34,048 bases of DNA from the NCBI GenBank assembly GCA_913055945.1, contig CAJXKU010000003.1, forward strand, positions 1-34,048. The letters are read 5' to 3'. Below the pieces are notes generated by a model. That model searched no databases, was not told the DNA's origin, and worked only from the letters and a program-made list of their open reading frames with translations. The number at the start of each line of letters is the position of its first letter. Within the stretch, counting starts at the first letter, position 1. Below are positions 7,170-34,048 of this stretch, in pieces. This DNA comes from an uncultured Lentisphaerota bacterium (GTDB lineage Bacteria; Verrucomicrobiota; Lentisphaeria; Oligosphaerales; CAJXKU01). The translations under genes were made by a program, and so were the position numbers.

Positions 7170-7190
7170 AGGATGATGGGAGGCTGAATG

Positions 7191-14944: not shown

Positions 14945-14973
14945 ATTATAACTGCTTTTCGGTTTCTGCAAAA
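14945..14973 (-). promoter_or_regulatory. Putative sigma70 promoter for the MEDS-PAS kinase
   Basis: Perfect TATAAT on the minus strand (14945-14950) with a TTTGCA/TTGCAG-like -35 15-17 bp upstream. Confidence 0.4.
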
Positions 14974-15072
14974 TAACGCGTAGTCTGTGTTACGCTTGCT
15001 CCCTCTTTTCGTGGTCGGCAGGGCACTTTTGGGGATAATTTTCAGCGAAATGAAAACACGTAGCGACCACTC

Positions 15073-17171: not shown

Positions 17172-17262
17172 GGACTGCGTCCAGCGTGACGATTACAGCA
17201 TGGATGCTTACGACATGCTGAATGCAATTCCTGAACGCAGTTTGACAGGCTGAACGCAGTTC
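17172..17262 (+). mobile_element. Module C, 91-bp MITE-like element, copy 1
   Basis: Imperfect 19-bp terminal inverted repeats (GGACTGCGTCCAGCGTGAC / GACAGGCTGAACGCAGTTC). Near-identical to 19387-19477 and, inverted, to 33902-33992. Confidence 0.85.
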
Positions 17263-20016: not shown

Positions 20017-21543
20017 ATGCCTCAGAGAACATACACTCACGCACAACTCGCGCTGATTGCCCGAATTGCGCGCGAACTGGCAGATGCGCAGGAACTCCAG
20101 CGCACCCTGGGAACTGTGCTGGATTGGCTGTCCGCCGAAATCGGACTGCGCCGGGGTGTGATCACCCTGATCAACGAAGAGGGCACGGAAATCCAGGCAG
20201 ATATCACCGGAAGTGATATCCCCGAAAGTCAATCGGAGCGGATGTCCTACCAACCCGAGGAAGGCATCACCGGCAGGGTTTTCTCCTCCGGTGAACCGGT
20301 CTACCTCCCCCGCCTGGACGAGAACCAGGAATTTCTGGACCGGGCCGGGCTGCGGAAAAACCTCGATCAGTCCCGGATTGCATTTTTCTGCGTGCCGATA
20401 ACCTATCGGGAAACTGTGATCGGAACCCTTTCTGCGGACAAAGACATTGCGCAAATCACAGATCATCAGGCGGAACAATCCTTCGTTATGGAAGTTGGCC
20501 ATCTGCTGGCGCCTTTTGTACAACGCCGCCGCCTCGAAGAGCAGCTCGAGGTCTTCCAACATGCCCGTGAGCCCCAGGGCCTTTTCCGCAAACTCATCGG
20601 ACGTTCGCCACAGATTGAAGAAATACAAAGACTTGTTGTGAAAGTGGCCGATGCGAGTACAACCATCCTGATCGGAGGCGAAACCGGTACCGGCAAAGGG
20701 GTAGTGGCGGAACTTATCCACGAAATGAGCCCCCGTAAGGACCATCCCTTCCTGGAAGTGAATTGCGGAGCAATCCCGGAACACCTCGTAGAAAGCGAAC
20801 TGTTCGGTCACGAAAAAGGCGCATTCACCGGCGCCACCCACAGACGTACAGGTGTTTTAGAGCGTGCGGGAGCCGGCACCGTGTTTCTTGACGAGATCGG
20901 TGAATTGCCGCTGACCGCCCAGACCCGCCTTCTGCGCGTGCTTCAAAGCCGCGAATATGAACGGGTGGGAGGCAATGAAACCCTCCGATGCGCCGCGCGC
21001 ATTATAGCGGCGAGCAACCGGGACCTTGAACAGGCTGTCACTGACGGATCCTTCCGGTCGGATCTTTACTACAGAGTGAATGTCTTTCCCATCCATATGC
21101 CGCCGCTACGGGAGCGGGGTAAAGCAGACATTATGCTGCTGGCTGAACACTTTGCCCAGCGCTTCGCACAGGATCAGGGCAAACACATTGAACGCATGGA
21201 TACCCCTTGCATTGACATGCTTACAGCCTATCACTGGCCGGGCAACGTCCGCGAACTGGAAAACGTCATTGAGCGCGCCGTGCTTTTGACCGACGGCAGT
21301 GTCCTGCATGGTCACGACCTCCCCCCCTCTCTGCAGATGAACAGGTACACAGAGCACCAGGAATCCCACAACGATTTTAATACAAGAGTCCGCAACTATG
21401 AAATTGAACTGATTACTGAAGCCTTGAAGGAGACCAACGGTAATCAGACGAAGGCTGCGGAAAATCTGGGTATAACCAAACGCATGATTCAGTACAAAAT
21501 CAGAAACTACGGCATAAATTACCGTCGTTTCCGCCGGACCTGA
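20017..21543 (+). CDS. Sigma54-dependent enhancer-binding protein, NifA-like (GAF-AAA+-Fis HTH)
   Basis: GAF (EEGITGRVF...AFFCVPI...IGTLS), Walker [40 protein letters not shown] and [15 protein letters not shown]. Confidence 0.93.
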
Positions 21544-21763: not shown

Positions 21764-21780
21764 TTGGCATACAATGTGCT
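21764..21780 (+). promoter_or_regulatory. Sigma54 (-24/-12) promoter of glnA
   Basis: TTGGCATACAATGTGCT has exact GG-N10-GC spacing, lies about 90 bp upstream of glnA and sits next to an EBP gene. A weak IHF-like site is at 21734-21746. Confidence 0.8.
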
Positions 21781-21871
21781 TACCTACCCGGCGAGTTCTA
21801 AAAAAACTCCCTTACACACAGCAACTCTCGTAACGCAAAACCTAAAGAAAAAAACAAGGAGCAATCTCACC

Positions 21872-23284
21872 ATGACACCACAGGAATTCTTCGAGTACGC
21901 ACGCAAAAACGGCGCTGAGATGATGGACCTCAAGTTCGTCGACATGCTGGGAAGCTGGATGCATTGCAGCTACCCCATCGAAACCCTTGATGAAGATATT
22001 TTCACTGAAGGGCTGGGCTTTGACGGCTCCTCCATCCGCGGCTGGCAGGAGATTCATCAATCCGACATGACAGCCGTATGCGACCCTGACACCGCGACCA
22101 TGGACCCCTTCTTTGAGAAACCGACGGTCAGTGTTATTGCCACCATAGCTGATCCGGAAACAGGGAAGGATTACGCTAAATGCCCCCGGCACGTCGTTAA
22201 GCGCGCGGCTGAGTATATCAAGAGCGAAGGAATCGCGGACACATGTTTCGTCGGTCCGGAGCCGGAATTCTTCATCTTTGACGAAGTGCAGTACGAACAG
22301 AATCAGCATACCGGCTTCTACCGAATCGATTCCGTCGAAGGCGCATGGAACACCGCACGTTTCGAAGAACCGAACCTCGGCTATAAACCGAGCTTTAAAG
22401 GCGGCTACTTTCCGGTCAGCCCCACGGATACATATCACGACCTCCGCGGGGAGATGTCCTACGAGATGATGAAGCAGGGCATCAAGGTTGAAGCCCATCA
22501 CCACGAGGTTGCCACCGCCGGACAGGCCGAAATCGACCTCCAGTACAACGACCTTGTAACGATAGCTGACCAGTTTATGTGGTATAAGTACATTGTCAAA
22601 AACGTCGCTCGCCGCAACGGAAAGACGGTCACCTTCATGCCGAAGCCGGTCTTCGAAGACAATGGCAGCGGCATGCACACGCACCTCAGCCTGTGGAAGG
22701 ACGGCGAGAACCTTTTCGCCGGCGACGGCTACTCCGGAATGTCAAAAATGGCACTTAATGCGGTCGGCGGTCTTCTTAAACACGCTCCGGCGGTGCTGGC
22801 GTTCGGCGCCCCGACGACCAACAGTTACAGACGCCTGGTCCCCGGATTTGAGGCGCCGGTGAATCTTGCCCTTTCGGCGCGAAATCGTTCCGCCGCCATC
22901 CGAATCCCGATGTATTCCCAGAGCGAAAAAGCCAAGCGGCTGGAGTTCCGCTGTCCCGATGCAACGGCCAACGGCTACTTGGCTTGGTCGGCAATGCTCA
23001 TGGCCATGATCGACGGCATTATCAACGAAACCGATCCGGGCGAACCGCTGGATCGGAACATCTTCGAACTCTCATCGGAAGAGCTGGCCAACATTCCTAA
23101 GGTTCCGGGAAGTCTGGATGAGGCAATCAACGCCCTCGAAGAAGATCATGACTTTCTGTTACGCGGCGACGTATTTACAGAAGACCTGGTCCGTTCCTAT
23201 ATCGACTGGAAACGGGAGCAGGAGCTTCTCGAGATGGCGCTGCGGCCGCAACCTTACGAGTTCCATCTGTACTACGACTCGTAA
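21872..23284 (+). CDS. glnA: Glutamine synthetase type I (GSI-beta-like)
   Basis: [57 protein letters not shown] and [15 protein letters not shown] precedes ATG 21872; the longer ORF-track start overlaps the promoter. Confidence 0.97.
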
Positions 23285-23615: not shown

Positions 23616-25511
23616 ATGATTGCAGAACAGTGTGCAAGCATCATCCGCAACCGTCTCCGCACTCCTGACCAATCACTTCAGCTATATCCCACTCGGGAGC
23701 AGAGAGGTGCATGGGAGAGCATCCCCCATGGTGTTCGCCAAGCGCATATCAGGCGTGCTGAAAAAAGACAAGGGGGCGATTGGCCACCGTTGCCGGCTAC
23801 ACTCTTTCTGGAGTTTGTACGACAGGGAAACCGCAAGAACTACGAACAGGCGCGTTTTGCCAGACGAGAAGCGCTTTGTGATCTGGTGCTCGGCGAATGT
23901 ATAGAGGCGGACGGTCGGTTCACAGATGACATCATCAACGGTGTATGGGCCGTTTGCGAGGAAACCTACTGGGGTGTTCCTGCCCACCTGGGGATGCAAA
24001 TGGCAGGGCAAGGCCTTCCCGATGCGGCTGAGCCGACCGTTGATTTGTTCGCAGCCGAGACCGGCGCTCTGCTGGCATGGACCCACTATTTGCTGGAGCA
24101 ACCCCTTGCTGACGTTTCCCCGGTTATTCCGCGCAGAATAGAGGATGAGGTCAATCACCGTATACTTACACCGCTCTTACAGCGGGACGACTTTCGATGG
24201 ATGGGGTTTCATGGCGCCCGTGTCAACAACTGGAATCCATGGATCTGCTCAAACTGGCTGACGTGTGTGTTACTACTTGAAAGGGACGAAACGAAGAGAT
24301 TAAATGCTGTACTAAAAATCCTGAGGGTCCTTGACAATTTCCTCGAATCCTATCCCACAGACGGTGGCTGTGATGAAGGGCCGCTGTACTGGGGAAAAGC
24401 CGGGGGCGCACTTTTTGACTGCCTGGAACTTTTGTACAAGAGCACAGACGGACACTTTAATCTATACGAGCACCCGCTTATTCAGGAGATCGGGCGATAT
24501 CTGTATCGGGTCCATATCGCAGATCACTATTTTGTGAACTTCGCAGATGCGCCTGCAACGTTAACGCCACCGCCAGCGGTGATGTTGGGCTACGGAAAGC
24601 GTATCGGTGACAAGCCGCTGATCCAGCTTGGCGCATGGTTTGCCCACCGGCAACGATGGACTGAAAAGGGTGTCGCCGGCAATATCGGACGCCAGCTCTA
24701 CGCGCTGTTTCATCTAAGTGAACTGAGTCAAACAAAACCACGGCAGCCGCTTGTGCGGGATACTTGGTTCCCGGAGATTCAGGTGATGGCGGCAAGAGAT
24801 CGGAGCGGCAGCAAAAAGGGCCTTTATGTCGCTGCCAAAGGAGGTCATAATGCGGAAAGCCACAACCACAATGACGTGGGTAACTTCGTGTTTTTCGTCG
24901 ACAGTAAACCGGTCATCGTTGACGCCGGCGTGGGAACGTATTCGAGGGAGACATTCAGCAACCAACGCTACGATATCTGGACCATGCAGTCAGCGTATCA
25001 TAACGTTCCTGCCGTAAACGGGATGCAGCAACAGGCAGGCGATGCTTTTGCCGCTTCGCATGTGACATATGACGCTGACGCCCACTGTGCGGCGCTTTCT
25101 ATGGATATGAGTGGCGCCTACCCGGAGAAATCGGGACTTAAAAGGTGGAACCGAACAGTAAGCATATATCGGGAAAAAGCACTCGAAATCCGCGATGATT
25201 ATGAGCTGGATCACCCCTCCGAAGATGTCTGTGTCGTATTACTTACGCCGTGTCATGTTACAGCACCTTCCTCAGGCGAAGTCCAACTGCATGAGCGACG
25301 CCTGCCCGAAAACCGCAGAAGCGGCACTGCTTTTCTATGGTACGACGCAGAGCGCTTGAGCTGTAATCTAGAACCCCTTCAGATTGAGGATGAAGCCTTG
25401 ACACGCGTATGGGGTAGCGAGATGAAGCGGATGGTATTTGCGGTCAGAAACGCTGAGAAGGCACAATTACTGAAATTTCAGCTTCGATCCGCGTTGGCGA
25501 ATCAGGGATAA
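23616..25511 (+). CDS. Heparinase II/III-like polysaccharide lyase family protein
   Basis: NNWNPWICSN, DGGCDEGPLYW, VNFADA, KGGHNAESHNHNDVGNF, VDAGVGTY and QSAYHNVP motifs; no signal peptide. Confidence 0.82.
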   Translation: MIAEQCASIIRNRLRTPDQSLQLYPTREQRGAWESIPHGVRQAHIRRAEKRQGGDWPPLPATLFLEFVRQGNRKNYEQARFARREALCDLVLGECIEADGRFTDDIINGVWAVCEETYWGVPAHLGMQMAGQGLPDAAEPTVDLFAAETGALLAWTHYLLEQPLADVSPVIPRRIEDEVNHRILTPLLQRDDFRWMGFHGARVNNWNPWICSNWLTCVLLLERDETKRLNAVLKILRVLDNFLESYPTDGGCDEGPLYWGKAGGALFDCLELLYKSTDGHFNLYEHPLIQEIGRYLYRVHIADHYFVNFADAPATLTPPPAVMLGYGKRIGDKPLIQLGAWFAHRQRWTEKGVAGNIGRQLYALFHLSELSQTKPRQPLVRDTWFPEIQVMAARDRSGSKKGLYVAAKGGHNAESHNHNDVGNFVFFVDSKPVIVDAGVGTYSRETFSNQRYDIWTMQSAYHNVPAVNGMQQQAGDAFAASHVTYDADAHCAALSMDMSGAYPEKSGLKRWNRTVSIYREKALEIRDDYELDHPSEDVCVVLLTPCHVTAPSSGEVQLHERRLPENRRSGTAFLWYDAERLSCNLEPLQIEDEALTRVWGSEMKRMVFAVRNAEKAQLLKFQLRSALANQG

Positions 25512-25560
25512 CAGCCCCACAGGGACGGGACGATGTTCTGCCTCTTGGAAGCACAGTGCC

Positions 25561-25730
25561 CGTATGAGACTCGGCACCGCGACTGCATGAATCCAAAGCA
25601 TACTGAAGTATGAACTCTGACCAGCCGAACCCGCGCTATCGCCTCGTAGGAGTTCATGCTTCAGCATGTCTTCCGAGTCTCATACCCTGGTGCCTGGGCG
25701 GCTCCGCCGCCCGGCGGGTTGGCTCGTATA
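25561..25730. repeat. Mosaic repeat cluster 3: module B plus module A (inverted relative to cluster 2)
   Basis: GTATGAGACTCGG (25562)...CCGAGTCTCATAC (25673-25685) is the inverted homologue of 19258-19383. 25676-25730 is the reverse complement of an A unit like 19568-19626. Confidence 0.9.
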
Positions 25731-25940
25731 GCAGAACTCACGCTCGTACCGCGATTTTGATGACAACCTGAACGCCTTACGTAAGACCTCTGCGCGCAGG
25801 GGGGAGTCCTCCGCCGTGTTTTTACCCCCCTGTTACCGGACAGGGTTGTTCGGCTCCAGACGCCGGTTCCGCTGAGGCCGGCATTCCGTTTTCATCAAAA
25901 CCATGCGCTGTGCCTGGTTATGACATTGACCCTAAATTTC
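25731..25940. repeat. Element E copy 2
   Basis: GCAGAACTCACGCTCGTACCGCGATTTTGATGACAACCTGAACGCC matches 6951ff. Pairs with GGCATTCCGTTTTCATCAAAA and has the same TTATG...CCTAAATTTC tail. Confidence 0.8.
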
Positions 25941-25943
25941 GCA

Positions 25944-26039
25944 GTTGATTTTGTGGTTGCATATGCAAGGCAGCGAGATGACGCGGTAGTTCCTACCGCG
26001 AATCGAAGCTAACGAAGCAGATGCAATCACAAAATTAAC
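25944..26039 (+). repeat. Element F: 96-bp nested hairpin (structured RNA or MITE-like)
   Basis: 23-bp arms GTTGATTTTGTGGTTGCATATGC / GCAGATGCAATCACAAAATTAAC enclose a CGCGGTAG-TTC-CTACCGCG hairpin. Confidence 0.65.
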
Positions 26040-26047
26040 CCTTTAGG

Positions 26048-26148
26048 GTAGAAAAACCAAACAACTAACGTTTCACCCAATGGGTGAAACGTTCTAATTA
26101 GCTAACACCTTATAAACCAATAACTTAGAGACTCTTTGGTTTTTCTGC
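26048..26148. repeat. Element G: about 100-bp MITE-like unit with 14-bp TIRs, internal 27-bp palindrome and IHF-like site
   Basis: GTAGAAAAACCAAA / TTTGGTTTTTCTGC ends, AACGTTTCACCCA-A-TGGGTGAAACGTT (26067-26093) and AACCAATAACTTA (26115-26127). Confidence 0.65.
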
Positions 26149-26211
26149 TGCGTATTTTAGGTTGATTGATACACCATCCCCTTAAGACCGACAGTTCTGT
26201 TTCATCCGGTC

Positions 26212-26239
26212 TTGACGAATGGCGAGGACATGTTATTGT
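26212..26239 (+). promoter_or_regulatory. Putative sigma70 promoter of the hydrogenase operon
   Basis: TTGACG-16 bp-TATTGT with an extended -10 TG, immediately upstream of the Rex-like boxes. Confidence 0.55.
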
Positions 26240-26242
26240 AAA

Positions 26243-26277
26243 TTGTGAATTTCGTCACAGAGTGAACACTGTCACAA
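26243..26277 (+). promoter_or_regulatory. Two tandem Rex-like operators
   Basis: TTGTGAA-TTTC-GTCACAG (26243-26260) and GAGTGAA-CACT-GTCACAA (26260-26277) versus the Rex consensus TTGTGAANNNNTTCACAA. Confidence 0.7.
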
Positions 26278-26504
26278 TGCCGCGCGGGTAGATGTTCAAC
26301 AGAGCAAAGCGATGTTGTCGTGGCCGCGGCACGGGAACAAACAAAACAGGGGCTCTAAGAAGGCGCCACGAACTGAATGTTTCAGTTGGACTTCGCCCTT
26401 CAGCGAATGAATCGGCGCTCACCATCCGCCTCCGGCATACGCTTTTCGCCGGTTCGCGGTTCTGAATTACCCCCCTTCGCCACTAACGGATAAGGAGGTT
26501 CCAG

Positions 26505-27017
26505 ATGGGAGAGGTTATAGATTTTGAACAACTCGACGAACACCAGCAGATGGAAAAAGTGGACGAAATTATCGAAGCCGAGAAAAACACGGATGGTGCG
26601 CTCATGCCGATCCTGCAACGCATGCAGCACACGTTCGGTTTCCTGCCGGAACCTGCTTTGAAAAGAGTTGCCAAGCAGCTCAACAAGTCCTATAGCGAGA
26701 TCGTGGGTGTCGTGGGCTTTTACTCTCTCTTTTCCACTACCCCGCGCGGCAAACACACGATCCAGGTCTGCCTGGGAACGGCCTGTTATGTACGTGGCGG
26801 AAAATCCATCCTGGAGGCGATCTCAGAATACCTCGGTATCGGGGTGGGCGAAACCACCGAAGACCGAATGTTCACCCTGGAAGTGGCACGCTGTTTCGGC
26901 GCCTGCGGGCTCGCACCGGCGATCACGGTCGATGACAACGTCCATCACCGCGTAAAGTCGACGAATATACCCGAAATCCTTGAACGTTACCGTGAGGAGG
27001 AAGAGGAGGATACATGA
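26505..27017 (+). CDS. hydC: [FeFe]-hydrogenase NuoE-like [2Fe-2S] subunit (HydC/HndA)
   Basis: FYSLFS...GKHTIQVCLGTACYVRG...RCFGACGLAP; strong TAAGGAGGT RBS. Confidence 0.9.
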   Translation: MGEVIDFEQLDEHQQMEKVDEIIEAEKNTDGALMPILQRMQHTFGFLPEPALKRVAKQLNKSYSEIVGVVGFYSLFSTTPRGKHTIQVCLGTACYVRGGKSILEAISEYLGIGVGETTEDRMFTLEVARCFGACGLAPAITVDDNVHHRVKSTNIPEILERYREEEEEDT

Positions 27018-27224
27018 CACTTTTCAGTTTACAGGTCTTCCCTCACGGGTGGCTTCATACCCCCCGCACTTGCGGCGTCTTTTTGTATAGGGACAATTCA
27101 GGCAGTCAAGTGTTAGAAGAAATCCAGCTCAGCGTTGCAGAATCTCACACGTGCACTGTGTCAATGAGTGAGTGTGCAGATTGAACATCAATCCGAAACA
27201 AACAACCAACGAAGGTCGTCAGTT

Positions 27225-30200
27225 ATGGCAAATACAATTACCTCGCCCAAGGATTTGACCGCCATCAAAGAACGCTTCACCGCTGCACGATGTCCGAAGC
27301 AGGTATTGCTTTGCGCAGGGGCCGGCTGCGTGGCTTCAGGCTCCCAGGAAGTAAGCAAAGCGCTCAGCGAAGAGATACAGAAACACGAACTGGGTTCAGA
27401 GGTGGAGATCATTGAGTGCGGTTGCCTCGGATTGTGTGCACAGGGTCCTGTGGCTCTCGTCCAGCCCGACGGCGTATTCTACGAACAGCTCCAGCCGGAG
27501 GATGCTGCAGAAATCACTGAAAGCCATCTGAAAAACGGCACGGTTGTGGAGCGTCTGTTACACACAACCCCCGAAGGAAAAAAGGTTCCCGAGATCAACG
27601 AAATCCCCTTTTTCCAGAAACAACAGAAGTACGTTTTAAAAAATTGCGGCAACATTGACCCCAATGACATAGATGCCTACATCGCCAACGGCGGCTATAC
27701 GGCGTTAGCCAAATGCCTCACGGAAATGTCTCCGGATGAGGTTGTGGATACCGTTTACCAGTCCGGACTCCGCGGCCGCGGCGGCGCCGGCTTTCCGACA
27801 GGGCTGAAATGGCAGTTTACGCGAAAAGCAGAGGGTGATCAGAAATACGTGCTGTGTAACGCCGATGAAGGGGACCCCGGCGCATTCATGGATCGCAGTG
27901 TGCTGGAAGGGGATCCTCACAGCCTCGTTGAGGCCATGATGATCGCGGGTTACGCTGTGGGAGCCAGCCGGGGCTTTGTTTATGTCCGCGCCGAATACCC
28001 CCTTGCTGTCGAACGCTTGTCCCGGGCACTGGAACAGGCGCGTGAGTACGGCCTGCTCGGACAAAACATTATGGGCCATGATTTCACCTTCGATCTTCAG
28101 ATCCGCATGGGCTCAGGCGCGTTTGTCTGCGGCGAAGAGACAGCCCTGATGCGCTCCGTCGAGGGGAAACGCGGAGAACCCCGCCCCCGCCCGCCATTCC
28201 CGGCAAACAAGGGGCTTTGGGAAAAACCCAGCCTCCTGAACAATGTGGAAACCTATGCCAACGTACCGCAGATCATCCTTAACGGAGCGGAATGGTTCCA
28301 GAACATCGGGACCGAAAAAAGCAAAGGCACCAAGGTATTTGCCTTGGCCGGATCGGTCACATACTCGGGACTGATTGAAGTTCCCATGGGGACCGAACTC
28401 GGCGACATCGTCTACGACATCGGCGGCGGAATTCCGAATGATAAGGAATTCAAGGCCGCCCAGATCGGAGGACCGTCCGGTGGTTGCATCCCGCGGGCAA
28501 ACTTAAGCGTGCCCGTAGATTACGAATCCCTGAGTGAACTCGGGGCGATTATGGGATCCGGCGGACTCGTCGTTATGGACGAAGATTCCTGTATGGTGGA
28601 CATTGCCCGCTTCTTCCTAGAGTTTGTTCAGGAGGAATCGTGCGGCAAATGTACGCCCTGCCGAGTCGGCACCAAACGTATGCTGGAAATGCTGGACCGC
28701 ATCTGTCACGGTCAGGGCGAGGACGGCGATCTTGAAAAACTCGAACAACTGGGCCGCGTAATCACCGACACGGCCCTTTGCGGCTTAGGTCAGACCGCGC
28801 CGAACCCGGTTCTGTCCACAATACGCCACTTCCGCGACGAATACATTGCCCATATCCGGGATAAGCAGTGTCCAGCCAGCTTGTGTCCGGCCCTGGTACG
28901 GGCGCCATGCCAGAACGAATGTCCTGCCAGTGTGGACGTACCCGGTTTCCTCTCATTGATCGGGGAAGAAAGATACAACGAGGCCCTCCGGTTGCACCGG
29001 GAGCGGAATCCGTTCGCAGTGGTATGCTCGAGGGTCTGCCCGAACCCCTGCGAGTCCAAATGCCGCCGGCATACAATGGACGGCGCAGTAGCCGTGCGGC
29101 ATGCCAAAAGATTTATGGTTGATCAGGAAGCCTCAGTTGAACTCCCTGAAGTCCGGGACAACGCGGAAAACGCCTCGCGGAAGATTGCGCTTGTCGGCGG
29201 CGGCCCGGCAAGCTTGGCATGTGGCTACTTTCTCGCCCGGCTGGGGTATAAGCCGACGCTTTTTGAAGCGGAAGAGTACTTGGGCGGCATGATGATGCAG
29301 GCCATTCCTGCTTACCGGCTCCGGCGCGAGCCGCTGGGCTATGAAATCTGGATGATTAAACGCATGGGGGTTGACATTAAAACGCCGATGAAGCTGGGCG
29401 AAGATTTCACGCTTCAGAGTCTTAAAGACGAAGGCTACGACGCAGTGTTTCTAGGTGTGGGGGCTCCGGATGGTATGGCTCTTAAACTCGACGGAGACGG
29501 CAGAGCTGAGGACGATGTCGTGGATGCACTGAACTTTCTGCGGGATTACAACATCCGCTACGGCAGCAAACAGACCGATGAACACGGTAACAGAATCGCA
29601 GTCGTGGGCGGAGGCAACGCCGCCATTGACGCCGCCCGCACTTCCCTCCGTCTCGGCGCTGAAAAGGCCACCGTCATTTATCGGCGTTCACGCGGAGACA
29701 TGCCGGCGTACAACGAAGAGATCGAAGACGCGATCGAGGAAGGTGTAGACCTGGAACTGCTTACCAACCCTGAAGAGGTTATCAGCTCCGAAGACGGCAG
29801 CATCCATGGGGTAAAATGCCGCCGCATGAAACTCGGAAATTTCGATAAGAGCGGCCGCAGACGCCCCACCCCTACGGACGAAATGGTCACCGTGGAGGCG
29901 GATAAAATCATTGCGGCTATCGGACAGAACGTGAATGCCGACCAGCTCGTTTCCCCGGAACAGGTGACATTGACGGAGAATGGCCGCATTCAGGCGGACG
30001 CCGTCAACGGACAGACCTCATTGCCGTGGGTATTCGCAGGAGGCGATTGCGTAACCGGCCCCGCATCAGTCATCGAGGCTGTGGCGGCCGGTGAACGAGC
30101 CGCTGTCGGCATCGACGAATACCTCACGGGGGAAAACCATGCATTCTGGCGGGAAGAAAAACCGGTGGACACTCACGTCGATCCGGATGCGGATCCGTTC

Positions 30201-30347
30201 CCTGACGCTCGTATCGATATCCCAAAAGTGGCGGCGGAACACCGTGCCGACAGTTGGGAAGAAATTGAACAGACCTGGGACAGACGCTTAGCCGTCCGCC
30301 AGGCGAAACGTTGTTTACGGTGCGATTACCGTCCGGAAGAAAATTAA
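27225..30347 (+). CDS. hydB: NuoF-like flavoprotein subunit HydB fused to a GltD/NfnB-like FAD/NADP(H) oxidoreductase module
   Basis: Thioredoxin-like [2Fe-2S] N-terminus (CAGAGC...CLGLC), SGLRGRGGAGFPTG, NADEGDPGAFMDR, GAFVCGEETAL, GGPSGG and ESCGKCTPC. Then PCQNECP, CSRVCPNPCESKC, GGGPAS, GGGNAAIDAAR, YRR, AGGDC and a terminal RCLRC. Confidence 0.88.
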   Translation: MANTITSPKDLTAIKERFTAARCPKQVLLCAGAGCVASGSQEVSKALSEEIQKHELGSEVEIIECGCLGLCAQGPVALVQPDGVFYEQLQPEDAAEITESHLKNGTVVERLLHTTPEGKKVPEINEIPFFQKQQKYVLKNCGNIDPNDIDAYIANGGYTALAKCLTEMSPDEVVDTVYQSGLRGRGGAGFPTGLKWQFTRKAEGDQKYVLCNADEGDPGAFMDRSVLEGDPHSLVEAMMIAGYAVGASRGFVYVRAEYPLAVERLSRALEQAREYGLLGQNIMGHDFTFDLQIRMGSGAFVCGEETALMRSVEGKRGEPRPRPPFPANKGLWEKPSLLNNVETYANVPQIILNGAEWFQNIGTEKSKGTKVFALAGSVTYSGLIEVPMGTELGDIVYDIGGGIPNDKEFKAAQIGGPSGGCIPRANLSVPVDYESLSELGAIMGSGGLVVMDEDSCMVDIARFFLEFVQEESCGKCTPCRVGTKRMLEMLDRICHGQGEDGDLEKLEQLGRVITDTALCGLGQTAPNPVLSTIRHFRDEYIAHIRDKQCPASLCPALVRAPCQNECPASVDVPGFLSLIGEERYNEALRLHRERNPFAVVCSRVCPNPCESKCRRHTMDGAVAVRHAKRFMVDQEASVELPEVRDNAENASRKIALVGGGPASLACGYFLARLGYKPTLFEAEEYLGGMMMQAIPAYRLRREPLGYEIWMIKRMGVDIKTPMKLGEDFTLQSLKDEGYDAVFLGVGAPDGMALKLDGDGRAEDDVVDALNFLRDYNIRYGSKQTDEHGNRIAVVGGGNAAIDAARTSLRLGAEKATVIYRRSRGDMPAYNEEIEDAIEEGVDLELLTNPEEVISSEDGSIHGVKCRRMKLGNFDKSGRRRPTPTDEMVTVEADKIIAAIGQNVNADQLVSPEQVTLTENGRIQADAVNGQTSLPWVFAGGDCVTGPASVIEAVAAGERAAVGIDEYLTGENHAFWREEKPVDTHVDPDADPFPDARIDIPKVAAEHRADSWEEIEQTWDRRLAVRQAKRCLRCDYRPEEN

Positions 30348-30363
30348 GCAGGGAGATACGACA

Positions 30364-32136
30364 ATGCTTACGGCTTATATCAACAACCAGGAAATCCAAG
30401 TCCCGGAAGGAACAACTATTCTGCAGGCCGCGTCTCAGCACGGCATCAGAATTCCCACACTGTGCTACCTGGAGAATCTCCAGGCCATCGGCGCATGCCG
30501 CGTATGTATGGTCGAAGTGGAAGGTGCCCGCAACCTCCTGGCTTCATGCGTTACTGAGGTCAAGGACGGCATGAACATCAAAACCAACACTCGTCGGGTG
30601 CGCGAAGCCAGGCGAAGTGTCGTGGAATTGATGCTTTCCGCCCACGACGGGGACTGTCAAACTTGTGAGCGCAACGACGACTGCGAATTACAGGAACTTG
30701 CCCGCGAACTCGGCATTAGAGAACTCACCTTCACCGGTGAAAAACGCGTCAAGATCGAAGATAACAGCACCCCTGCTCTGTCCCGCGATACGGGTAAATG
30801 CATTTCGTGTCAGCGCTGCATAGCGGTCTGCAACCAGATTCAGGGGGTTGATGCCCTGGCGCCGCAGGACAGGGGCTTTACAACGGTCATCGGGCCGGCC
30901 TTCTGCAGCACCCTTGACTCGGTCGCGTGCGTGCAGTGTGGACAATGCGCTGCCGTGTGCCCGGTGGGGGCCATCAGCGAAAAAGACCATGTCGATGATG
31001 TATGGGATGCCCTGGACGATCCCGACAAACACGTCGTGGTGCAGACGGCTCCGGCAATCCGTGCAGCACTCGGCGAATGTTTCGGCGAAGACCCCGGCAG
31101 TCTCGTGACCGGAAAAATGGTCGCCGCTCTAAGGCGCCTCGGTTTCGACCGCGTCTTTGATACCAACTTTACGGCGGATCTTACAATCGTGGAAGAAGGC
31201 AATGAGCTGCTGACCAGACTCAAACAGACACTTACGGGGGATGGTCAAGCAGTCCTGCCCCAATTCACCAGCTGTTGTCCGGGGTGGATCAAATATATGG
31301 AGTATTTCTACCCTGACATGCTCGAAAACCTCTCCACTTGTAAATCACCGCAACAGATGTTCGGGGCAGTCGCCAAAACCTATTACGCCGAACAGACAGG
31401 TGTGAATCCGGAGAATCTTTACGTTGTCTCCATCATGCCCTGTACCGCGAAAAAGTTTGAATGTGAACGCGAAGAGATGACAGACAGCGGTTACAAAGAT
31501 GTGGACGCTGTGCTCACCACACGGGAGTTGGGCCGCATGATGCAGCAGGCGGGCATAGAATTTGACACGCTTCCTGAAGAAAGACAGGACAGTCCCCTCG
31601 GCAACTCCTCGGGAGCGGCTGATATTTTCGCTAACACCGGAGGTGTGATGGAAGCAGCTCTCAGAACGGCATACGAGGTTGTGACCGGTCGTGAACTGCC
31701 TTTCGACGATCTCCGTGTAGAACCCATCGAATCGCTCGACGGGGTGAAAGCGGCATCAGTTTCTATCACGGATCCCGTCGAAGAATGGTCGTTCCTGGAC
31801 GGCGCCACGCTGAACATCGCCGTCGCGCACGGCCTGGAAAATGCGAATAAGGTCATTCAGCAGGTCAAAAACGGCGAAGCCGAGTACCACTTCGTGGAAG
31901 TTATGACGTGTCCCGGCGGATGCATCGGCGGCGGCGGACAACCGCGGTTTACCGACGACAAGGCACGGCAGCGCCGAATCGACGCTATCTTCAAGGAAGA
32001 TGAACAGAAAGAACACCGCAAATCACACGAAAACCCCGAAATTGTTCAGATTTACCAGGACTTCCTTTCAGAACCGCTGGGGCACAAGTCCCATGAACTG
32101 CTTCACACTGAGTACACAGAGCGCGAGGTGATGTGA
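30364..32136 (+). CDS. hydA: [FeFe]-hydrogenase catalytic subunit (group A, multimeric type)
   Basis: [2Fe-2S], His-ligated [4Fe-4S] (HDGDCQTC..C) and 2x[4Fe-4S] motifs. H-cluster motifs TSCCPGW, MPCTAKKFE and EVMTCPGGCIGGGGQP; C-terminal SHELLHT. Confidence 0.96.
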   Translation: MLTAYINNQEIQVPEGTTILQAASQHGIRIPTLCYLENLQAIGACRVCMVEVEGARNLLASCVTEVKDGMNIKTNTRRVREARRSVVELMLSAHDGDCQTCERNDDCELQELARELGIRELTFTGEKRVKIEDNSTPALSRDTGKCISCQRCIAVCNQIQGVDALAPQDRGFTTVIGPAFCSTLDSVACVQCGQCAAVCPVGAISEKDHVDDVWDALDDPDKHVVVQTAPAIRAALGECFGEDPGSLVTGKMVAALRRLGFDRVFDTNFTADLTIVEEGNELLTRLKQTLTGDGQAVLPQFTSCCPGWIKYMEYFYPDMLENLSTCKSPQQMFGAVAKTYYAEQTGVNPENLYVVSIMPCTAKKFECEREEMTDSGYKDVDAVLTTRELGRMMQQAGIEFDTLPEERQDSPLGNSSGAADIFANTGGVMEAALRTAYEVVTGRELPFDDLRVEPIESLDGVKAASVSITDPVEEWSFLDGATLNIAVAHGLENANKVIQQVKNGEAEYHFVEVMTCPGGCIGGGGQPRFTDDKARQRRIDAIFKEDEQKEHRKSHENPEIVQIYQDFLSEPLGHKSHELLHTEYTEREVM

Positions 32137-32305
32137 TAGATTACTCGTGAAGACCCGCCGCAGTGGCTGCTTACACCTTTGACCGGTTCAGCCCCGTAAA
32201 TGCGGACAATATCGCCCGAGAGGCGGGATACAGCGTACCGGACAACCCGTGAGGCTCCAACAAGACGGCGTAGGACAGAGGAAGGAAACCATAGGAGAAA
32301 ACGAA

Positions 32306-32701
32306 ATGAGCGAAGACAAGCTCACCATACTTCTCGTGGACGATGATGTTGATTTTATCGAGGTGAACAAAGTTTTCCTTGAGCAGGAAGGCTACGAAGT
32401 CTTGACAGCCCATAACAGCAAACAGTGTATGGATGTCCTGAAAGAACAGAAACCCGACGGCATGATCATCGACGTGATGATGGATTACAAAAGTGAAGGC
32501 TTCGACCTTGCTCGAGATCTACGTCACTCAGAAGAGTATAAGGACATTCCGCTGATTATGCTGACGTCCGTAAACAGCCAGTTTCCGTATGACTTTGAAC
32601 CTCACGGAACCTGGCTTCCGGTCGATATCTTTCTGGAAAAACCGATAGAGGGCGACAAACTCGCCGAACAGGTAAACAAACAATTAAAATCCGAGTCATA
32701 G
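32306..32701 (+). CDS. Single-domain response regulator (receiver only)
   Basis: ILLVDDD, IDVMM (phospho-Asp), MLTS and EKP motifs; AGGAG precedes ATG 32306. Confidence 0.88.
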   Translation: MSEDKLTILLVDDDVDFIEVNKVFLEQEGYEVLTAHNSKQCMDVLKEQKPDGMIIDVMMDYKSEGFDLARDLRHSEEYKDIPLIMLTSVNSQFPYDFEPHGTWLPVDIFLEKPIEGDKLAEQVNKQLKSES

Positions 32702-32705
32702 CGTC

Positions 32706-33554
32706 ATGTATAAGATTCTAACAAAAGAAACGATTGCGCAGGATACGTACCGCATGAAGATCGAGGCACCGCTTATCGCTGAAGAGCGGGAGCCGGGACA
32801 GTTTGTCATCCTTTCCGTTCATGGAGAATACGGCGAACGGATCCCCTTAACAATCGCGGATGCGGACAGCAGGGAAGGCAGTATTACTGTAATTTTCCAG
32901 GTGGCGGGCTATTCCACAAGCGAACTGGCCAAGCTGAACCCGGACGACCACGTGCCTGTGCTCCTGGGGCCACTCGGACATCCGACACACATAGACCGTT
33001 TCGGTCATGTGGTATGTGTGGCCGGAGGTATAGGGGCGGCGCCTCTTTACCCCATTGCTGAAGCCCTCCGTGAGAACGGAAATACAATCACGACCATTCT
33101 CGGGGCCCAGTCCAAAGACATGATGATCCTGGAAGAAGAGATGAGATCGCTCAGCGATGAAACCATTGTGTGCACAGACGACGGCACCTATGGCAGAAAG
33201 GATGTCGTTACCGGACCTCTGGAAGAGATTTGCGCAAGCGACCGCACGCCGGATCTGGTTGTCGCCGTCGGTCCGCCGGTCATGATGAAATTCTGCGCTG
33301 AAACCACCAGACCTTACGGAATCAAAACAATGGTTTCGCTCAACACTATCATGATCGACGGTACAGGCATGTGCGGCGGTTGTCGCGTAACAGTCGGCGA
33401 GGAAACAAAATTCACTTGCGTAGACGGACCGGAGTTCGATGGACATCAAGTGGACTTTGACGAGATGATAAACCGCTTAAACGCCTATACAGACCACGAA
33501 CAGGACGCCCTCGAACGTAAGCCCCACTCCGGTTGCTGCCAGTCTGCAGGTTAA
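32706..33554 (+). CDS. nfnA: NfnA/SudB-like FAD/NAD-binding [2Fe-2S] subunit
   Basis: PGQFVIL, GERIPLTIAD, GPLGHP, AGGIGAAP, TDDGTYG, GPPVMMKF and MIDGTGMCGGCRV...FTCVDGPEF (Asp/Cys3 [2Fe-2S] motif of NfnA/SudB). Confidence 0.88.
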   Translation: MYKILTKETIAQDTYRMKIEAPLIAEEREPGQFVILSVHGEYGERIPLTIADADSREGSITVIFQVAGYSTSELAKLNPDDHVPVLLGPLGHPTHIDRFGHVVCVAGGIGAAPLYPIAEALRENGNTITTILGAQSKDMMILEEEMRSLSDETIVCTDDGTYGRKDVVTGPLEEICASDRTPDLVVAVGPPVMMKFCAETTRPYGIKTMVSLNTIMIDGTGMCGGCRVTVGEETKFTCVDGPEFDGHQVDFDEMINRLNAYTDHEQDALERKPHSGCCQSAG

Positions 33555-33761
33555 TCCTCCGCCGGTGTCACCCAACGGCCGCCTCAGCTGAGACTATCCC
33601 GGAACATCTTTGAGTAGGCCACGAAACGGCTCCACGCGGCTACCCATGACCGCGACCCCGTGGCCCCCCGGATACACCAGCATATATGTATCCCGAAACA
33701 CGCACGCGTGATGCCTGGACGTCCATGCATATCTTGCGATCTAACAGGACGACGGGATTAC

Positions 33762-34048
33762 CGGAACTCAAGCGCATCCCCTCGATTTTCGCGACAAGCC
33801 GGATACCTGAGCATGCAGTCTTTTGCAGAGGAATTGCATTCAGCATGTCGTAATGCATCCATGCTGTAATCGTCACGCTGGACGCAGTCCCTCGTATGAG
33901 AGAACTGCGTTCAGCCTGTCAAACTGCGTTCAGGAATTACATTCAGCATGTCATAAGTATCCAGGCTGTAATCGTCACGCTGGACGCAGTCCCTCGTATG
34001 AGACTCGCCGGGTAAAGATCCGGCTGAAGCCGGAACTACAAGCAATTG
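33762..34048. repeat. Mosaic repeat cluster 4: E 5' part fused to partial C - hinge - C - hinge - REP (runs off the window)
   Basis: E-like 33762-33838, partial C 33829-33890, CTCGTATGAG at 33891 and 33993, full C 33902-33992 and REP hairpin 34020-34039. Confidence 0.9.

What the first reader, a model, noticed from the sequence alone, without database searches (positions are those of the whole stretch)
26505..33554. Candidate hard-wired hydrogenase-Nfn supercomplex: HydB carries an NfnB/GltD module in place of its ferredoxin domain, and an orphan nfnA is in the operon
Seen: HydB keeps residues reported as typical of bifurcating HydABC (GAFMDR, GAFVCGEE, GGPSGG, and the H..CPA..C site). Where HydB normally ends in a 2x[4Fe-4S] ferredoxin-like domain, it continues from about 28900 into a complete GltD/NfnB-like FAD/NADPH module. 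The operon ends with nfnA, followed by about 500 bp of repeats and no nfnB. Established: HydABC bifurcates H2 to NAD+ and ferredoxin; NfnAB couples NADH and ferredoxin to NADP+, and nfnA/nfnB are usually adjacent. Related NuoEFG-GltD hybrids (Stn/Nso/Bfu-type enzymes) exist, so the parts are known. Inference: NfnA may dock on the fused module, giving a HydABC-NfnA complex. Its low-potential electron could pass internally between two flavin centres and couple H2, NADH and NADPH with little or no free ferredoxin.
Basis: partly seen in the sequence, partly recalled or inferred. Interest (0 to 1): 0.8.

Follow-up and report, generated by a model that had tools for sequence, protein, structure and literature searches.

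The report
Hydrogenase with fused NADP(H) module
A three-gene iron hydrogenase whose NADH-binding subunit carries an NADPH-binding module where its ferredoxin-docking end normally sits is real, widespread and biochemically untested, but the nfnA gene next to it looks like a local duplicate rather than a built-in partner.

Summary
The genes are there: hydC, a 1059-aa HydB(NuoF)-GltD fusion, an H-cluster hydA, a receiver-only response regulator and an nfnA-type gene, all on the + strand. The fused module replaces the 2x[4Fe-4S] end that three other HydB paralogs of this genome keep. It is not NfnB-type. By score, tree, AU test, a C-terminal CxxC tail and a Lys cluster ligand it belongs with the GltD domain of Stn/Nfn-Bfu enzymes, which need no NfnA. 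'Orphan nfnA' is not established. The window is a whole contig that ends 494 nt after nfnA in a dispersed repeat, and a canonical nfnA-nfnB pair lies on contig C106. The two NfnA copies are sister paralogs. nfnA lies next to no other hydrogenase-type fusion: 0 of 20 loci in the same order, 0 of 23 evaluable loci from other phyla. Most likely this is a Bfu-derived hydrogenase linking H2 to NAD(H) and NADP(H), and nfnA is not a conserved subunit. One genome paper already noted the fusion; none that I found characterises it. The complex-prediction tool never ran.

The parts
26505..27017 (+). hydC: NuoE-like thioredoxin-type [2Fe-2S] subunit (170 aa)
   Evidence: Pfam 2Fe-2S_thioredx 163.4 bits, residues 20-163. 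NuoE/HoxE/FdsG-type NCBIfam matches are all below their cut-offs.
27168..30347 (+). hydB-gltD fusion (1059 aa from GTG 27168; likelier start ATG 27225, giving 1040 aa). It consists of a BfuB/NuoF core plus a Stn-type GltD module.
   Evidence: Pfam domain order. The closest database proteins are 1044-1045 aa. Core versus PDB: 7t2r_B 825 bits, 7q4v_B 812 bits.
27297..27521 (+). N-terminal thioredoxin-like [2Fe-2S] domain of HydB (residues 44-118)
   Evidence: Pfam PF01257 35.8 bits. The pairs CAGAGC and CLGLC are in the translation.
27753..28853 (+). FMN/NADH-binding and NuoF [4Fe-4S] core (residues 196-562), with GAFMDR, GAFVCGEE and GGPSGG
   Evidence: Pfam Complex1_51K 155 bits and NADH_4Fe-4S 122.7 bits. 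Alignments to A. mobile and A. woodii HydB. The GGPSG loop and the A/M/F residues are called conserved in bifurcating enzymes in PMC12018979 (passage).
28851..28886 (+). Linker H562-x5-C568-x4-C573 (numbered from the GTG start): the H..CPA..C site, after which homology to canonical HydB stops
   Evidence: PDB alignments end at query residues 558-560 of the ATG-start protein, where those chains begin their Fd-like C-terminal domain. H, C and C are invariant in 16 fused proteins. The site is described as a Zn2+-stabilised linker in StnB (PMC10482914).
28875..30344 (+). GltD-type module (residues 570-1059): two [4Fe-4S] sites, FAD and NADP(H) Rossmann folds, Lys647 at the cluster-ligand position, and a C-terminal tail ending RC1049LRC1052D
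   Evidence: Pfam Fer4_20 and Pyr_redox_2. PDB phmmer: 9bov_A 360 bits, 8oh5_C 326 bits, 4ylf_B 273 bits. Invariant Cys, GxGxxG, YRR and GGD columns. Lys/Glu tally.
30364..32136 (+). hydA: [FeFe]-hydrogenase catalytic subunit with N-terminal [2Fe-2S]/[4Fe-4S] domains and the H-cluster domain (590 aa)
   Evidence: Pfam Fe_hyd_lg_C 330.8 bits, Fer2_4, NADH-G_4Fe-4S_3 and Fe_hyd_SSU. NCBIfam NF040763 891.7 bits, over the cut-off of 765. HydE and HydF maturases are over their cut-offs elsewhere in the genome.
32249..32701 (+). Receiver-only response regulator (150 aa from GTG; an internal ATG at 32306 is possible). Its stop is 4 nt before the nfnA start.
   Evidence: Pfam Response_reg 64.5 bits and no output domain. 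An RR follows hydA in related loci L129, L131, L135, L041 and L043.
32706..33554 (+). nfnA-type gene (282 aa): FAD/NAD-binding with a [2Fe-2S] site. It is the sister paralog of the nfnA on contig C106.
   Evidence: NF004862 401.1 bits against a cut-off of 220. 77% identical to C106 7149-7985. The two are sisters with SH-aLRT 100 in a 33-row tree. All invariant columns are kept.
33555..33828 (.). Non-coding spacer that matched only itself in the genome BLAST
   Evidence: No other genome match for tail positions 1-274. No ORF resembles NfnB. No Rfam family.
33829..34048 (.). Two tandem ~102-nt units of a dispersed repeat family, at which the contig ends
   Evidence: the repeat finder families D1 and D2. 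276 BLAST pieces across the genome, several at contig ends: C84, C104, C46, C110.

Best explanation
hydC, hydB-gltD and hydA encode a trimeric [FeFe] hydrogenase built on the Bfu (HydABC) frame. In it the ferredoxin-interacting 2x[4Fe-4S] C-terminal domain of HydB has been replaced, right after the Zn-type linker, by a Stn/Nfn-Bfu-type GltD module (two [4Fe-4S] clusters, FAD, NADP(H) site).

Shown: the architecture, the cofactor motifs, the module's type, and its wide distribution.

Inferred: H2 is made or used at the H-cluster. NAD(H) binds at the FMN of HydB. NADP(H) binds at the FAD of the fused module, which sits at the end of the branch that in canonical enzymes leads to ferredoxin. The enzyme therefore links H2 to both pyridine nucleotides, NADP(H) taking ferredoxin's place wholly or in part: 2 H2 + NAD+ + NADP+ <-> NADH + NADPH + 2 H+.

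The downstream nfnA is a lineage-specific duplicate of the nfnA of the canonical nfnAB pair. It is co-transcribed at least with the response regulator. It is not a conserved subunit of this enzyme class. Its partner is more likely an NfnB, either the C106 one or a copy beyond the contig end, than the fused module.
For: Architecture: Pfam and NCBIfam. The HydB core scores 825, 812 and 715 bits against the HydB chains of solved A. mobile, A. woodii and T. kivui complexes, and the alignments stop at the linker. The paralogs in the same genome keep the Fer4 end.

Module type:
- PDB scores of 360, 336 and 326 bits for Nfn-Bfu/Stn A subunits, against 273 and 271 bits for NfnB.
- The tail ...RCLRCD aligns with the Stn tail and with the N-terminal RCLQC of NfnB, a permuted position.
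- Tree: NfnB clade 97*, fused plus Stn clade 99*, 48 rows.
- AU test: p = 0.0011 against the window module grouping with NfnB.
- Ligand position: fused 81 K + 12 H of 93; Stn-type 8 K of 8; nfnB beside nfnA 53 E of 53.

Stn's GltD FAD is reported as non-bifurcating, and Stn has no NfnA homologue (PMC10482914).

NADP(H): GxGxxA...YRR is invariant in 16 fused proteins. That this motif marks NADPH binding is recalled knowledge.

Distribution: 20 of 40 genomes of the same order. 72 of the 80 best loci in genome contigs, from more than 12 phyla, 28 of them followed by a full-length hydA.

nfnA: no linkage; one nfnA per relative; sister paralogs; canonical nfnAB on C106.

Potentials (NADH -280, NADPH -380, H2 -414 standard, Fd -500 mV) come from Table 1 of PMC9304861 (passage). 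That H2 at low partial pressure falls between NADH and NADPH is my own Nernst estimate.
Against: No biochemistry exists for any member, so substrate use and ferredoxin independence are inference.

In Bfu enzymes the B3/B4 clusters of the C-terminal domain are reported to be intimately involved in bifurcation (PMC12018979). Their replacement could equally give a non-bifurcating enzyme, or one that still meets ferredoxin at the module's distal cluster.

nfnA sits on the same strand, 4 nt after the response regulator and 570 nt after hydA. No terminator-like site was found on the + strand between hydA and the contig end, so co-expression with the hydrogenase is likely and a functional tie cannot be excluded.

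By the spacing seen in 60 of 68 evaluable nfnA loci (131-357 nt) an adjacent nfnB should already have appeared within the 497 nt available. This favours a truly nfnB-less nfnA at this locus.

The 12 of 93 fused modules with His at the ligand position show that the class is not uniform.
Confidence: 0.6

Rival explanations
1. First reader's model. NfnA docks on the fused module and supplies a second flavin and a NAD(H) site. The module's FAD then bifurcates as in NfnAB, and a HydABC-NfnA supercomplex passes the low-potential electron internally.
For: nfnA lies on the same strand just after hydA and the RR, with no terminator-like site between. No nfnB lies within 494 nt. NfnA looks intact. The fused module keeps the FAD-side Arg of the IPxYRL motif shared with NfnB and StnC. 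A duplicated gene placed beside a new neighbour is a classic route to a new partnership (inference).
Against: The module is Stn-type (Lys ligand, permuted CxxC, tree, AU test), and Stn-type complexes work without NfnA (PMC10482914). nfnA lies beside 0 of 20 and 0 of 23 comparable fusion loci. The closest relatives of this operon (L129, L131, L135) have regulators, not nfnA, after hydA. No relative carries a spare nfnA. Thermodynamically the sum HydABC + NfnAB is only NADPH + H+ = NADP+ + H2, which needs no second flavoprotein (my arithmetic).
Confidence: 0.12
2. The nfnA is the first gene of a second nfnAB pair, and its nfnB lies just beyond the contig end. The hydrogenase and Nfn are neighbours, not one enzyme.
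For: The contig ends in a dispersed repeat 494 nt after nfnA, and the assembly is 87% complete. In the sister locus C106 the nfnB core starts 528 nt after the NfnA end. In relative G020 the distance is about 820 nt. Both exceed the 497 nt available here. nfnAB pairs lie near NuoEF-type modules elsewhere: C106 itself, L062 and L166.
Against: No second nfnB-like sequence is found anywhere in the 3.39 Mb assembled. In 60 of 68 evaluable loci nfnB starts within 357 nt. The last 220 nt are repeat and the 274 nt before them show no NfnB-like frame.
Confidence: 0.3
3. The fused enzyme is still ferredoxin-dependent. Ferredoxin docks at the distal [4Fe-4S] cluster of the GltD module, as it does on NfnB. 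The enzyme then combines hydrogenase and Nfn-Bfu chemistry (H2, NAD, NADP and Fd).
For: The HydB core keeps the signature residues of bifurcating BfuB. In NfnB the ferredoxin binding site is on the subunit that carries the two [4Fe-4S] clusters (PMC7483475 passage). The genome also has two canonical HydABC sets, so ferredoxin-linked H2 metabolism exists in this cell.
Against: In Stn-type modules the distal cluster hands electrons to further clusters, not to ferredoxin (PMC10482914, section 9). The ferredoxin-like C-terminal domain that Bfu enzymes use for ferredoxin is the very part that is missing.
Confidence: 0.25

Closest known systems
Electron-bifurcating [FeFe] hydrogenase HydABC (Bfu family type 1; A. 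woodii, T. kivui, T. maritima)
   Same: Same three subunits and gene set. The HydB core scores 812, 715 and 651 bits against the solved HydB chains, with GAFMDR, GAFVCGEE, GGPSGG, the N-terminal [2Fe-2S] domain and the H..C..C linker. HydA carries an H-cluster.
   Different: The C-terminal 2x[4Fe-4S] ferredoxin-like domain of HydB is absent and is replaced by a 490-aa GltD module. That domain is the B3/B4 clusters, counted among the defining BfuB clusters in PMC9304861 and reported as involved in bifurcation in PMC12018979.
Stn / Nfn-Bfu (NfnABC) transhydrogenase (S. ovata 8OH5, C. saccharolyticus 9BOV, T. sibiricus 9N5U)
   Same: The fused module is most like their GltD/NfnL-like domain: 326-360 bits, Lys at the cluster-ligand position, a C-terminal CxxC tail and the same clade. 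The NuoE and NuoF partners are also of the same kind.
   Different: In Stn the module is inserted in the NuoG-like A subunit, which has no H-cluster, and the B subunit keeps its ferredoxin domain (PMC7483475, PMC10482914). Here the module is fused to the B subunit in place of that domain, and the A subunit is a true hydrogenase.
NfnAB (NfnSL) transhydrogenase
   Same: The window's NfnA is a typical NfnA/NfnS. The fused module shares the fold family, the FAD/NADPH motifs and two clusters with NfnB.
   Different: NfnB beside nfnA has Glu at the ligand position (53 of 53) and its CxxC at the N-terminus. The fused module has Lys and a C-terminal CxxC, and it is rejected from the NfnB clade. A true nfnAB pair lies elsewhere, on C106.
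Trimeric [FeFe] hydrogenase with an enlarged GltD-bearing beta subunit, noted in the Vallitalea guaymasensis L81 genome (PMC6163223)
   Same: [quoted passage not shown]
   Different: That is an annotation remark only: no phylogeny of the module, no biochemistry, no nfnA. I did not compare its sequence with the window's.

Membership tests
Bfu-type bifurcating [FeFe] hydrogenase (HydABC) | BfuA/HydA with an H-cluster domain | tested here: met
   Fe_hyd_lg_C 330.8 bits. NF040763 891.7 bits, over the cut-off of 765.
Bfu-type bifurcating [FeFe] hydrogenase (HydABC) | BfuC/HydC NuoE-like [2Fe-2S] subunit | tested here: met
   PF01257 163.4 bits.
Bfu-type bifurcating [FeFe] hydrogenase (HydABC) | BfuB core: FMN/NADH site, NuoF [4Fe-4S], N-terminal [2Fe-2S], Zn-type linker, and signature residues of bifurcating forms | tested here: met
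   The motifs are seen in the translation. Their meaning is taken from a passage of PMC12018979.
Bfu-type bifurcating [FeFe] hydrogenase (HydABC) | [quoted passage not shown] | tested here: not met
   No Fer4 dicluster domain; Fer4_20 and Pyr_redox_2 stand in its place. The domain is present in the 3 other HydB paralogs of this genome.
Bfu-type bifurcating [FeFe] hydrogenase (HydABC) | Ferredoxin- and NAD-coupled bifurcating activity | not testable with these tools
   Needs enzymology.
NfnAB (NfnSL) | Large subunit of the NfnB clade, with a Glu-ligated proximal cluster and an N-terminal CxxC | tested here: not met
   Lys647 and a C-terminal CxxC. Tree and AU test, p = 0.0011. Tally of 53 E of 53 against 81 K + 12 H of 93.
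NfnAB (NfnSL) | Small subunit NfnA with FAD/NAD(H) and [2Fe-2S] sites | tested here: met
   NF004862 401 bits against a cut-off of 220. Invariant columns kept, including D218, C223, C226 and C238.
NfnAB (NfnSL) | nfnA directly followed by nfnB | tested here: inconclusive
   None within 494 nt, after which the contig ends. The norm is 131-357 nt in 60 of 68 loci, but the distance is 528 nt in the sister locus.
Stn / Nfn-Bfu transhydrogenase | GltD-like domain with Lys at the FAD-proximal cluster (StnC K170, strictly conserved in StnC per PMC10482914) and a C-terminal CxxC tail | tested here: met
Stn / Nfn-Bfu transhydrogenase | GltD-like domain located in the NuoG-like A subunit, which lacks an H-cluster; B subunit with a ferredoxin-like C-terminal domain | tested here: not met
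   The domain is fused to the NuoF-like B subunit, and the A subunit is a true HydA.
[FeFe] group A2 'glutamate synthase-linked' (HydDB rule) | The protein encoded immediately downstream of hydA has a GltD/GltA domain but no NuoF domain (PMC5037454 passage) | tested here: not met
   The gene downstream of hydA is a response regulator. The GltD-bearing gene is upstream and contains NuoF.

The most novel reading that the evidence does not exclude
HydB-GltD hydrogenases are a widespread, unrecognised class in which NADP(H) has taken ferredoxin's place at the low-potential arm of a Bfu core. The enzyme would split or merge electrons between NAD(H) and NADP(H) with H2 in the middle, with no free ferredoxin. 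In this one lineage a freshly duplicated NfnA may have been recruited to the operon as an extra NAD(H)-FAD subunit, much as NfnA-family gamma subunits serve group 3b [NiFe] hydrogenases. The group 3b comparison is recalled; NCBIfam does list weak matches of this NfnA to those gamma subunits.
Probability: 0.25. Interest if true: 0.8.

Novelty: new variant of a known kind. Interest (0 to 1): 0.45.

Why it matters
Bfu-type enzymes are a large family of electron-bifurcating enzymes, and the role of the HydB C-terminal clusters in bifurcation is still debated. Here nature has replaced exactly that part with an NADP(H)/FAD module while leaving the rest of the core intact. This happened in an enzyme class found in at least a dozen phyla, including Planctomycetota, Verrucomicrobiota, Spirochaetota, Bacteroidota, Chloroflexota and an Asgard MAG.

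Assaying one member would show whether a Bfu core can bifurcate onto NADP+ instead of ferredoxin. The nfnA neighbour, by contrast, is a single-genome peculiarity that needs the contig gap closed before it means anything.

Tried and rejected
At it was declared unavailable. Nothing was folded, so the modelled-interaction test remains undone.
3. The metagenome scan with NfnA aimed to find a near-identical contig reaching past the window's end. The best hit was only 64% identical, so no continuation was found.
4. A search for a second nfnB in the assembly used the fused module and the C106 NfnB. It found only C3 (the fusion), C106 and a 30-31% GltD-like gene on C10.
5. Comparing the DNA after the two nfnA copies showed that similarity ends within the coding region. 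The spacers are unrelated.
6. The terminator/promoter scan found no + strand terminator-like site after 29255, so operon ends are not defined. Rfam found nothing in 25400-34048.
7. The first NfnA tree had 5 rows translated from the wrong strand by my script. It is discarded, and one search is the corrected tree.
8. Neighbours of 7 nfnA genes without an adjacent nfnB in metagenome loci were checked for an alternative partner. Only unrelated genes turned up (phosphoglycerate mutase, serpin, nitroreductase, MutS2 and others). In L102 an nfnB lies on the opposite strand.
9. Eight full-text searches looked for a paper describing the NuoF-GltD fused HydB. Only PMC6163223 mentions it. A ninth call (24) failed on a malformed term. 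Supplements were closed. Supplementary Table 1 and the clade figures of PMC9304861, and Fig. S8 of PMC12018979 (which lists an NfnL-like domain in 'FeFe hydrogenase group A'), may cover these fusions, and I could not see them.
10. I considered filing the locus under HydDB group A2 and rejected this on the published rule.

Full report
**What is in the sequence**

On the + strand between 26505 and 33554 lie five ORFs.
- hydC (26505-27017) is a NuoE-like [2Fe-2S] protein (PF01257, 163 bits).
- The next ORF (27168-30347) is 1059 aa from a GTG. An ATG at 27225 would give 1040 aa, closer to the 1044-1045 aa of its nearest database relatives.
- Its Pfam order is thioredoxin-like [2Fe-2S] (44-118), Complex1_51K (196-367), NADH_4Fe-4S (478-562), Fer4_20 (570-656) and Pyr_redox_2 (672-975). 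It is thus NuoF/HydB followed by a GltD-family module that begins at nt 28875.
- hydA (30364-32136) has the H-cluster domain and passes NCBIfam's 'group A6' model (891.7 bits against 765).
- A receiver-only response regulator (32249-32701) comes next.
- Four nucleotides later comes an NfnA-type gene (32706-33554; NF004862, 401 bits against 220).

HydE and HydF maturases are encoded elsewhere in the genome above their cut-offs, so a working hydrogenase is plausible.

**Is the ferredoxin domain really replaced?**

Yes. The genome has three other NuoF-type HydB genes (two on C42 beside full-length hydA genes, one on C106). All three end in a Fer4 dicluster domain directly after NADH_4Fe-4S.

The core of the window's HydB is very close to the B subunits of solved bifurcating enzymes:
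- A. mobile NiFe-HydB, 7t2r_B: 825 bits.
- A. woodii HydB, 7q4v_B: 812 bits.
- T. kivui, 8a6t_B: 715 bits.
- C. saccharolyticus NfnB, 9bov_B: 706 bits.
- StnB, 8oh5_B: 686 bits.
- T. maritima, 7p5h_B: 651 bits.

These alignments stop at residues 558-560, just after H-x5-C-x4-C, where those chains start their ferredoxin-like C-terminal domain. In StnB this linker is described as stabilised by Zn2+ (PMC10482914, passage).

**What kind of GltD module is it?**

It is not the NfnB kind. Six results agree.
1. [quoted passage not shown] True NfnB/NfnL scores lower (4ylf_B 273, 5jca_L 271, 5vj7_A 256).
2. The alignments to the Stn-type chains run to residue 484-486 of the 490-aa module. They include the tail ...AKRCLRCD, which matches ...KRCLECG of StnC.
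3. In NfnB the equivalent CxxC segment lies at the N-terminus (RCLQC), and HMMER aligns the window's tail to it as a second, out-of-order stretch. This fits the Pfam result: Fer4_20 covers profile positions 21-110 in the fusion but 1-112 in the C106 NfnB.
4. The residue aligned with StnC K170 is Lys (K647). That residue is the ligand of the FAD-proximal cluster, strictly conserved in StnC and replaced by Glu in NfnB (PMC10482914, section 9, read whole; also PMC12018979, passage). Over every module I had fetched, the column reads K in 81 and H in 12 of 93 fused modules, K in 8 of 8 Stn-type domains, and E in 53 of 53 nfnB genes that follow an nfnA.
5. A 48-row tree (IQ-TREE quick search, SH-aLRT only) puts the 14 nfnB rows on one side (97) and the 24 fused plus 9 Stn-type rows on the other (99).
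6. Forcing the window's module into the NfnB group costs 86 log-likelihood units (p-AU 0.0011).

In 16 fused proteins seven Cys of the module are invariant or nearly so, as are GxGxxG, GG, YRR and GGD. Two clusters, FAD and an NADP(H)-type site are therefore expected. That YRR marks the 2'-phosphate site is recalled knowledge.

**What the Stn literature implies**

In Stn the GltD domain is part of the NuoG-like subunit StnC, not of the NuoF-like subunit (PMC7483475, passages). Its FAD is argued to be non-bifurcating and simply feeds electrons through a cluster chain to the FMN of StnB. 'There is no NfnA homologue in Stn' (PMC10482914, passages). The window's module thus comes from a lineage that functions without NfnA. 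The architecture here is different from both Stn and HydABC: a Stn-type module on the B subunit in place of its ferredoxin domain, with a true HydA.

**Is nfnA an orphan?**

This cannot be settled.
- The window is a complete contig (G000:C3) of a 376-contig, 87%-complete assembly. It ends 494 nt after nfnA.
- The last 220 nt are two units of a dispersed repeat (276 BLAST pieces genome-wide, several at contig ends). The 274 nt before them matched nothing else in the genome.
- No NfnB-like frame lies in these 494 nt.
- Contig C106 carries a canonical pair. Its nfnA (7149-8003) is 77% identical to the window's. Its nfnB (8324-9829) has Fer4_20 and Pyr_redox_2 and is 39% identical to the fused module.
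- No third NfnB-like gene is in the assembly.
- In a 33-row tree the two NfnA copies are sisters (SH-aLRT 100), nested among the NfnA of the same order (one search is discarded for a script error). nfnA was therefore duplicated within this lineage.
- In 60 of 68 evaluable metagenome loci the nfnB core starts 131-357 nt after the NfnA end (12 of the 80 had too little sequence). By that norm an nfnB should have been visible here.
- In the sister locus the distance is 528 nt, and in relative G020 about 820 nt. Both are more than the 497 nt available.
- Eight of the 68 loci have no nfnB within 1.5 kb. Their neighbours are unrelated genes. An nfnB-less nfnA is therefore not in itself a sign of a new partner.

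**Is nfnA linked to such fusions?**

No.
- Twenty of 40 genomes of the same order carry a NuoF-GltD fusion. I fetched 20 loci from 19 of them.
- Twelve of these loci read hydC, hydB-gltD, a second hydC/hydB pair, then hydA. Five read hydC, hydB-gltD, hydA. Two add a response regulator after hydA. One is followed by only a HydA-N-terminal-like piece.
- None has an NfnA match at E <= 1e-8.
- Thirty-one of the 40 relatives have an NfnA at E <= 1e-40, each exactly one. By my reading of the two tables at least 28 of these are directly followed by an nfnB match on the same contig and strand. The other three lie at contig edges.
- A scan of one genome per species with an alignment of the junction and module gave 80 loci. 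Seventy-two are fusions and 8 are Stn-type.
- Of the 72 fusions, 28 are followed by a full-length hydA (4 more are cut by contig ends), 25 by a short NuoG-N-terminal-like FeS protein, and 15 by neither in the sequence held.
- Of the 28, 23 have at least 1.5 kb after hydA, and none has an NfnA match (E <= 1e-6) anywhere in the locus.
- The only fusion locus with an nfnA (L166, short-partner type) has it as an ordinary nfnA-nfnB pair about 2 kb downstream.
- Among the 80 loci most similar to the window's NfnA in metagenome contigs (best 64% identity), none shows the window's hydA-RR-nfnA arrangement.

**Origin of the operon**

The window's module falls in a fully supported group of six with MAGs labelled Chitinivibrionales, Verrucomicrobiota, Prolixibacteraceae, Spirochaetes and Planctomycetota (53-60% identity in the module, 61-72% in HydA). 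It does not group with the fusions of its own order (about 40%). This suggests the operon moves between phyla.

In that group hydA is followed by regulators:
- one response regulator in L129;
- two response regulators and a hybrid kinase in L131;
- a HydS-like sensor kinase, a response regulator, a hybrid kinase and a HydE-like gene in L135.

The window shares the response regulator but then has nfnA and repeats. The hyd genes and nfnA thus have different histories and met in this lineage.

**How it most likely works**

Shown: the parts list. Inferred: everything about electron flow.

In Bfu enzymes the site around the FMN sends one electron towards NAD+ and one towards the C-terminal clusters of BfuB. 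It does so by way of the [2Fe-2S] cluster of the C subunit, and the electron ends on ferredoxin (PMC10482914 and PMC12018979, passages). Here that last station is a pair of clusters wired to an FAD with an NADP(H) site.

Physiological potentials quoted in PMC9304861 (Table 1, passage) are about -280 mV for NAD, -380 mV for NADP and -500 mV for ferredoxin. H2 has -414 mV at 1 bar and, by my Nernst estimate, roughly -300 to -355 mV at 10-1000 Pa.

H2 at the pressures of fermenting communities thus lies between NADH and NADPH. An enzyme that merges NADH and NADPH electrons into H2, or splits H2 onto NAD+ and NADP+, is energetically sensible without ferredoxin.

I hold this as the leading mechanism at about 40%. 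Simple non-bifurcating NAD(P)H-linked activity, or retained ferredoxin use, are the alternatives.

**Prior knowledge and novelty**

- The Bfu survey defines BfuB by an invariant set of clusters that includes the C-terminal pair. Its main text, as far as I read it, does not mention a GltD-fused BfuB (PMC9304861: abstract; section 5, part 1 of 3; term searches).
- HydDB's group A2 rule explicitly excludes NuoF-containing neighbours (PMC5037454).
- One genome paper describes exactly this beta subunit in a trimeric hydrogenase of Vallitalea guaymasensis and suggests a second NAD(P)H site (PMC6163223, passages).
- PMC12018979 says that an NfnL-like domain also occurs in 'FeFe hydrogenase group A'. 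It refers to a supplementary figure I could not open.
- In eight full-text searches I found no biochemical or structural study of the fusion.
- Database proteins of this type are common. Most are about 1010-1050 aa. Of the few that carry a source name, most are named NuoF.

**Verdict**

It is not supported on the NfnA supercomplex.

The interesting object is the HydB-GltD hydrogenase class itself: a variant of the Bfu hydrogenases, already noticed in annotation but never characterised. The modelled-interaction test could not be run.

Noticed in passing
window 33829-34048; also 17172-17262, 19372-19486 and 11711-11766; many other contigs: A dispersed repeat of about 100 nt (core ...CATTCAGCATGTC...ATCGTCACGCTGGACGCAGTCCCTCGTATGAGA) gives 276 BLAST pieces in the genome. 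It often lies at contig ends (C84, C104, C46, C110), so it probably causes many of the 376 assembly breaks. Its nature (REP- or MITE-like) was not examined.
   Followed up: partly
L139, L146, L162-L164, L168, L173, L175, L176, L179-L182, L184, L186-L188, L190, L192, L195-L197, L202 (genome-contig loci): 25 of 72 NuoF-GltD fusions are followed not by a hydrogenase but by a short (~200 aa) FeS protein like the HydA/NuoG N-terminus, without an H-cluster. This may be a NuoE/NuoF-GltD/HoxU-like NADH:NADP+ enzyme distinct from Stn. The set includes an Asgard (Promethearchaeota) MAG, L180.
   Followed up: no
L029-L038, L042, L151, L161, L198: Many fusion loci read hydC, hydB-gltD, then a second hydC and a second, shorter hydB (about 550 aa, matched only to about residue 563, so apparently without a ferredoxin domain), then hydA. 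That gives two NuoEF pairs for one hydrogenase subunit.
   Followed up: no
G000 contig C106 (L209) 2516-9829: The canonical nfnAB pair lies 1.5 kb from a hydC-like gene, a 617-aa HydB with a ferredoxin domain, and a 231-aa HoxU-like FeS gene without any catalytic subunit gene. A divergently oriented 342-aa ORF lies between. nfnAB also lies beside Stn-type genes in L062 and beside a fusion in L166, so nfnAB and NuoEF-type modules recur as neighbours.
   Followed up: partly
G000 contig C42 (L208) 517-11865: Two further full hydABC-type sets lie in divergent orientation, together with a HydS-like sensory [FeFe] hydrogenase with a PAS domain (517-2334). The genome thus has three multimeric [FeFe] hydrogenases.
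   Followed up: partly
window 27014-27184: A 207-nt gap separates hydC from the likely hydB start (ATG 27225) and contains a 56-codon ORF overlapping the hydC stop. Related loci also show a gap here, and some (L135, L136, L153, L161, L198) carry an extra thioredoxin-like [2Fe-2S] piece in it.
   Followed up: no
window 11861-16641 (- strand) and 20017-21543 (+): A MEDS-PAS-PAS histidine kinase (1011 aa), a PAS hybrid kinase/receiver (522 aa) and a GAF sigma-54 activator lie upstream of glutamine synthetase (21764-23284). Any link to regulation of the hydrogenase or to nitrogen status is unknown.
   Followed up: no
window module versus relatives: The window's hyd operon groups with MAGs of five other phyla at 53-72% identity, whereas fusions in its own order are only about 40% identical in the module. 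This pattern suggests lateral transfer of the whole operon.
   Followed up: partly
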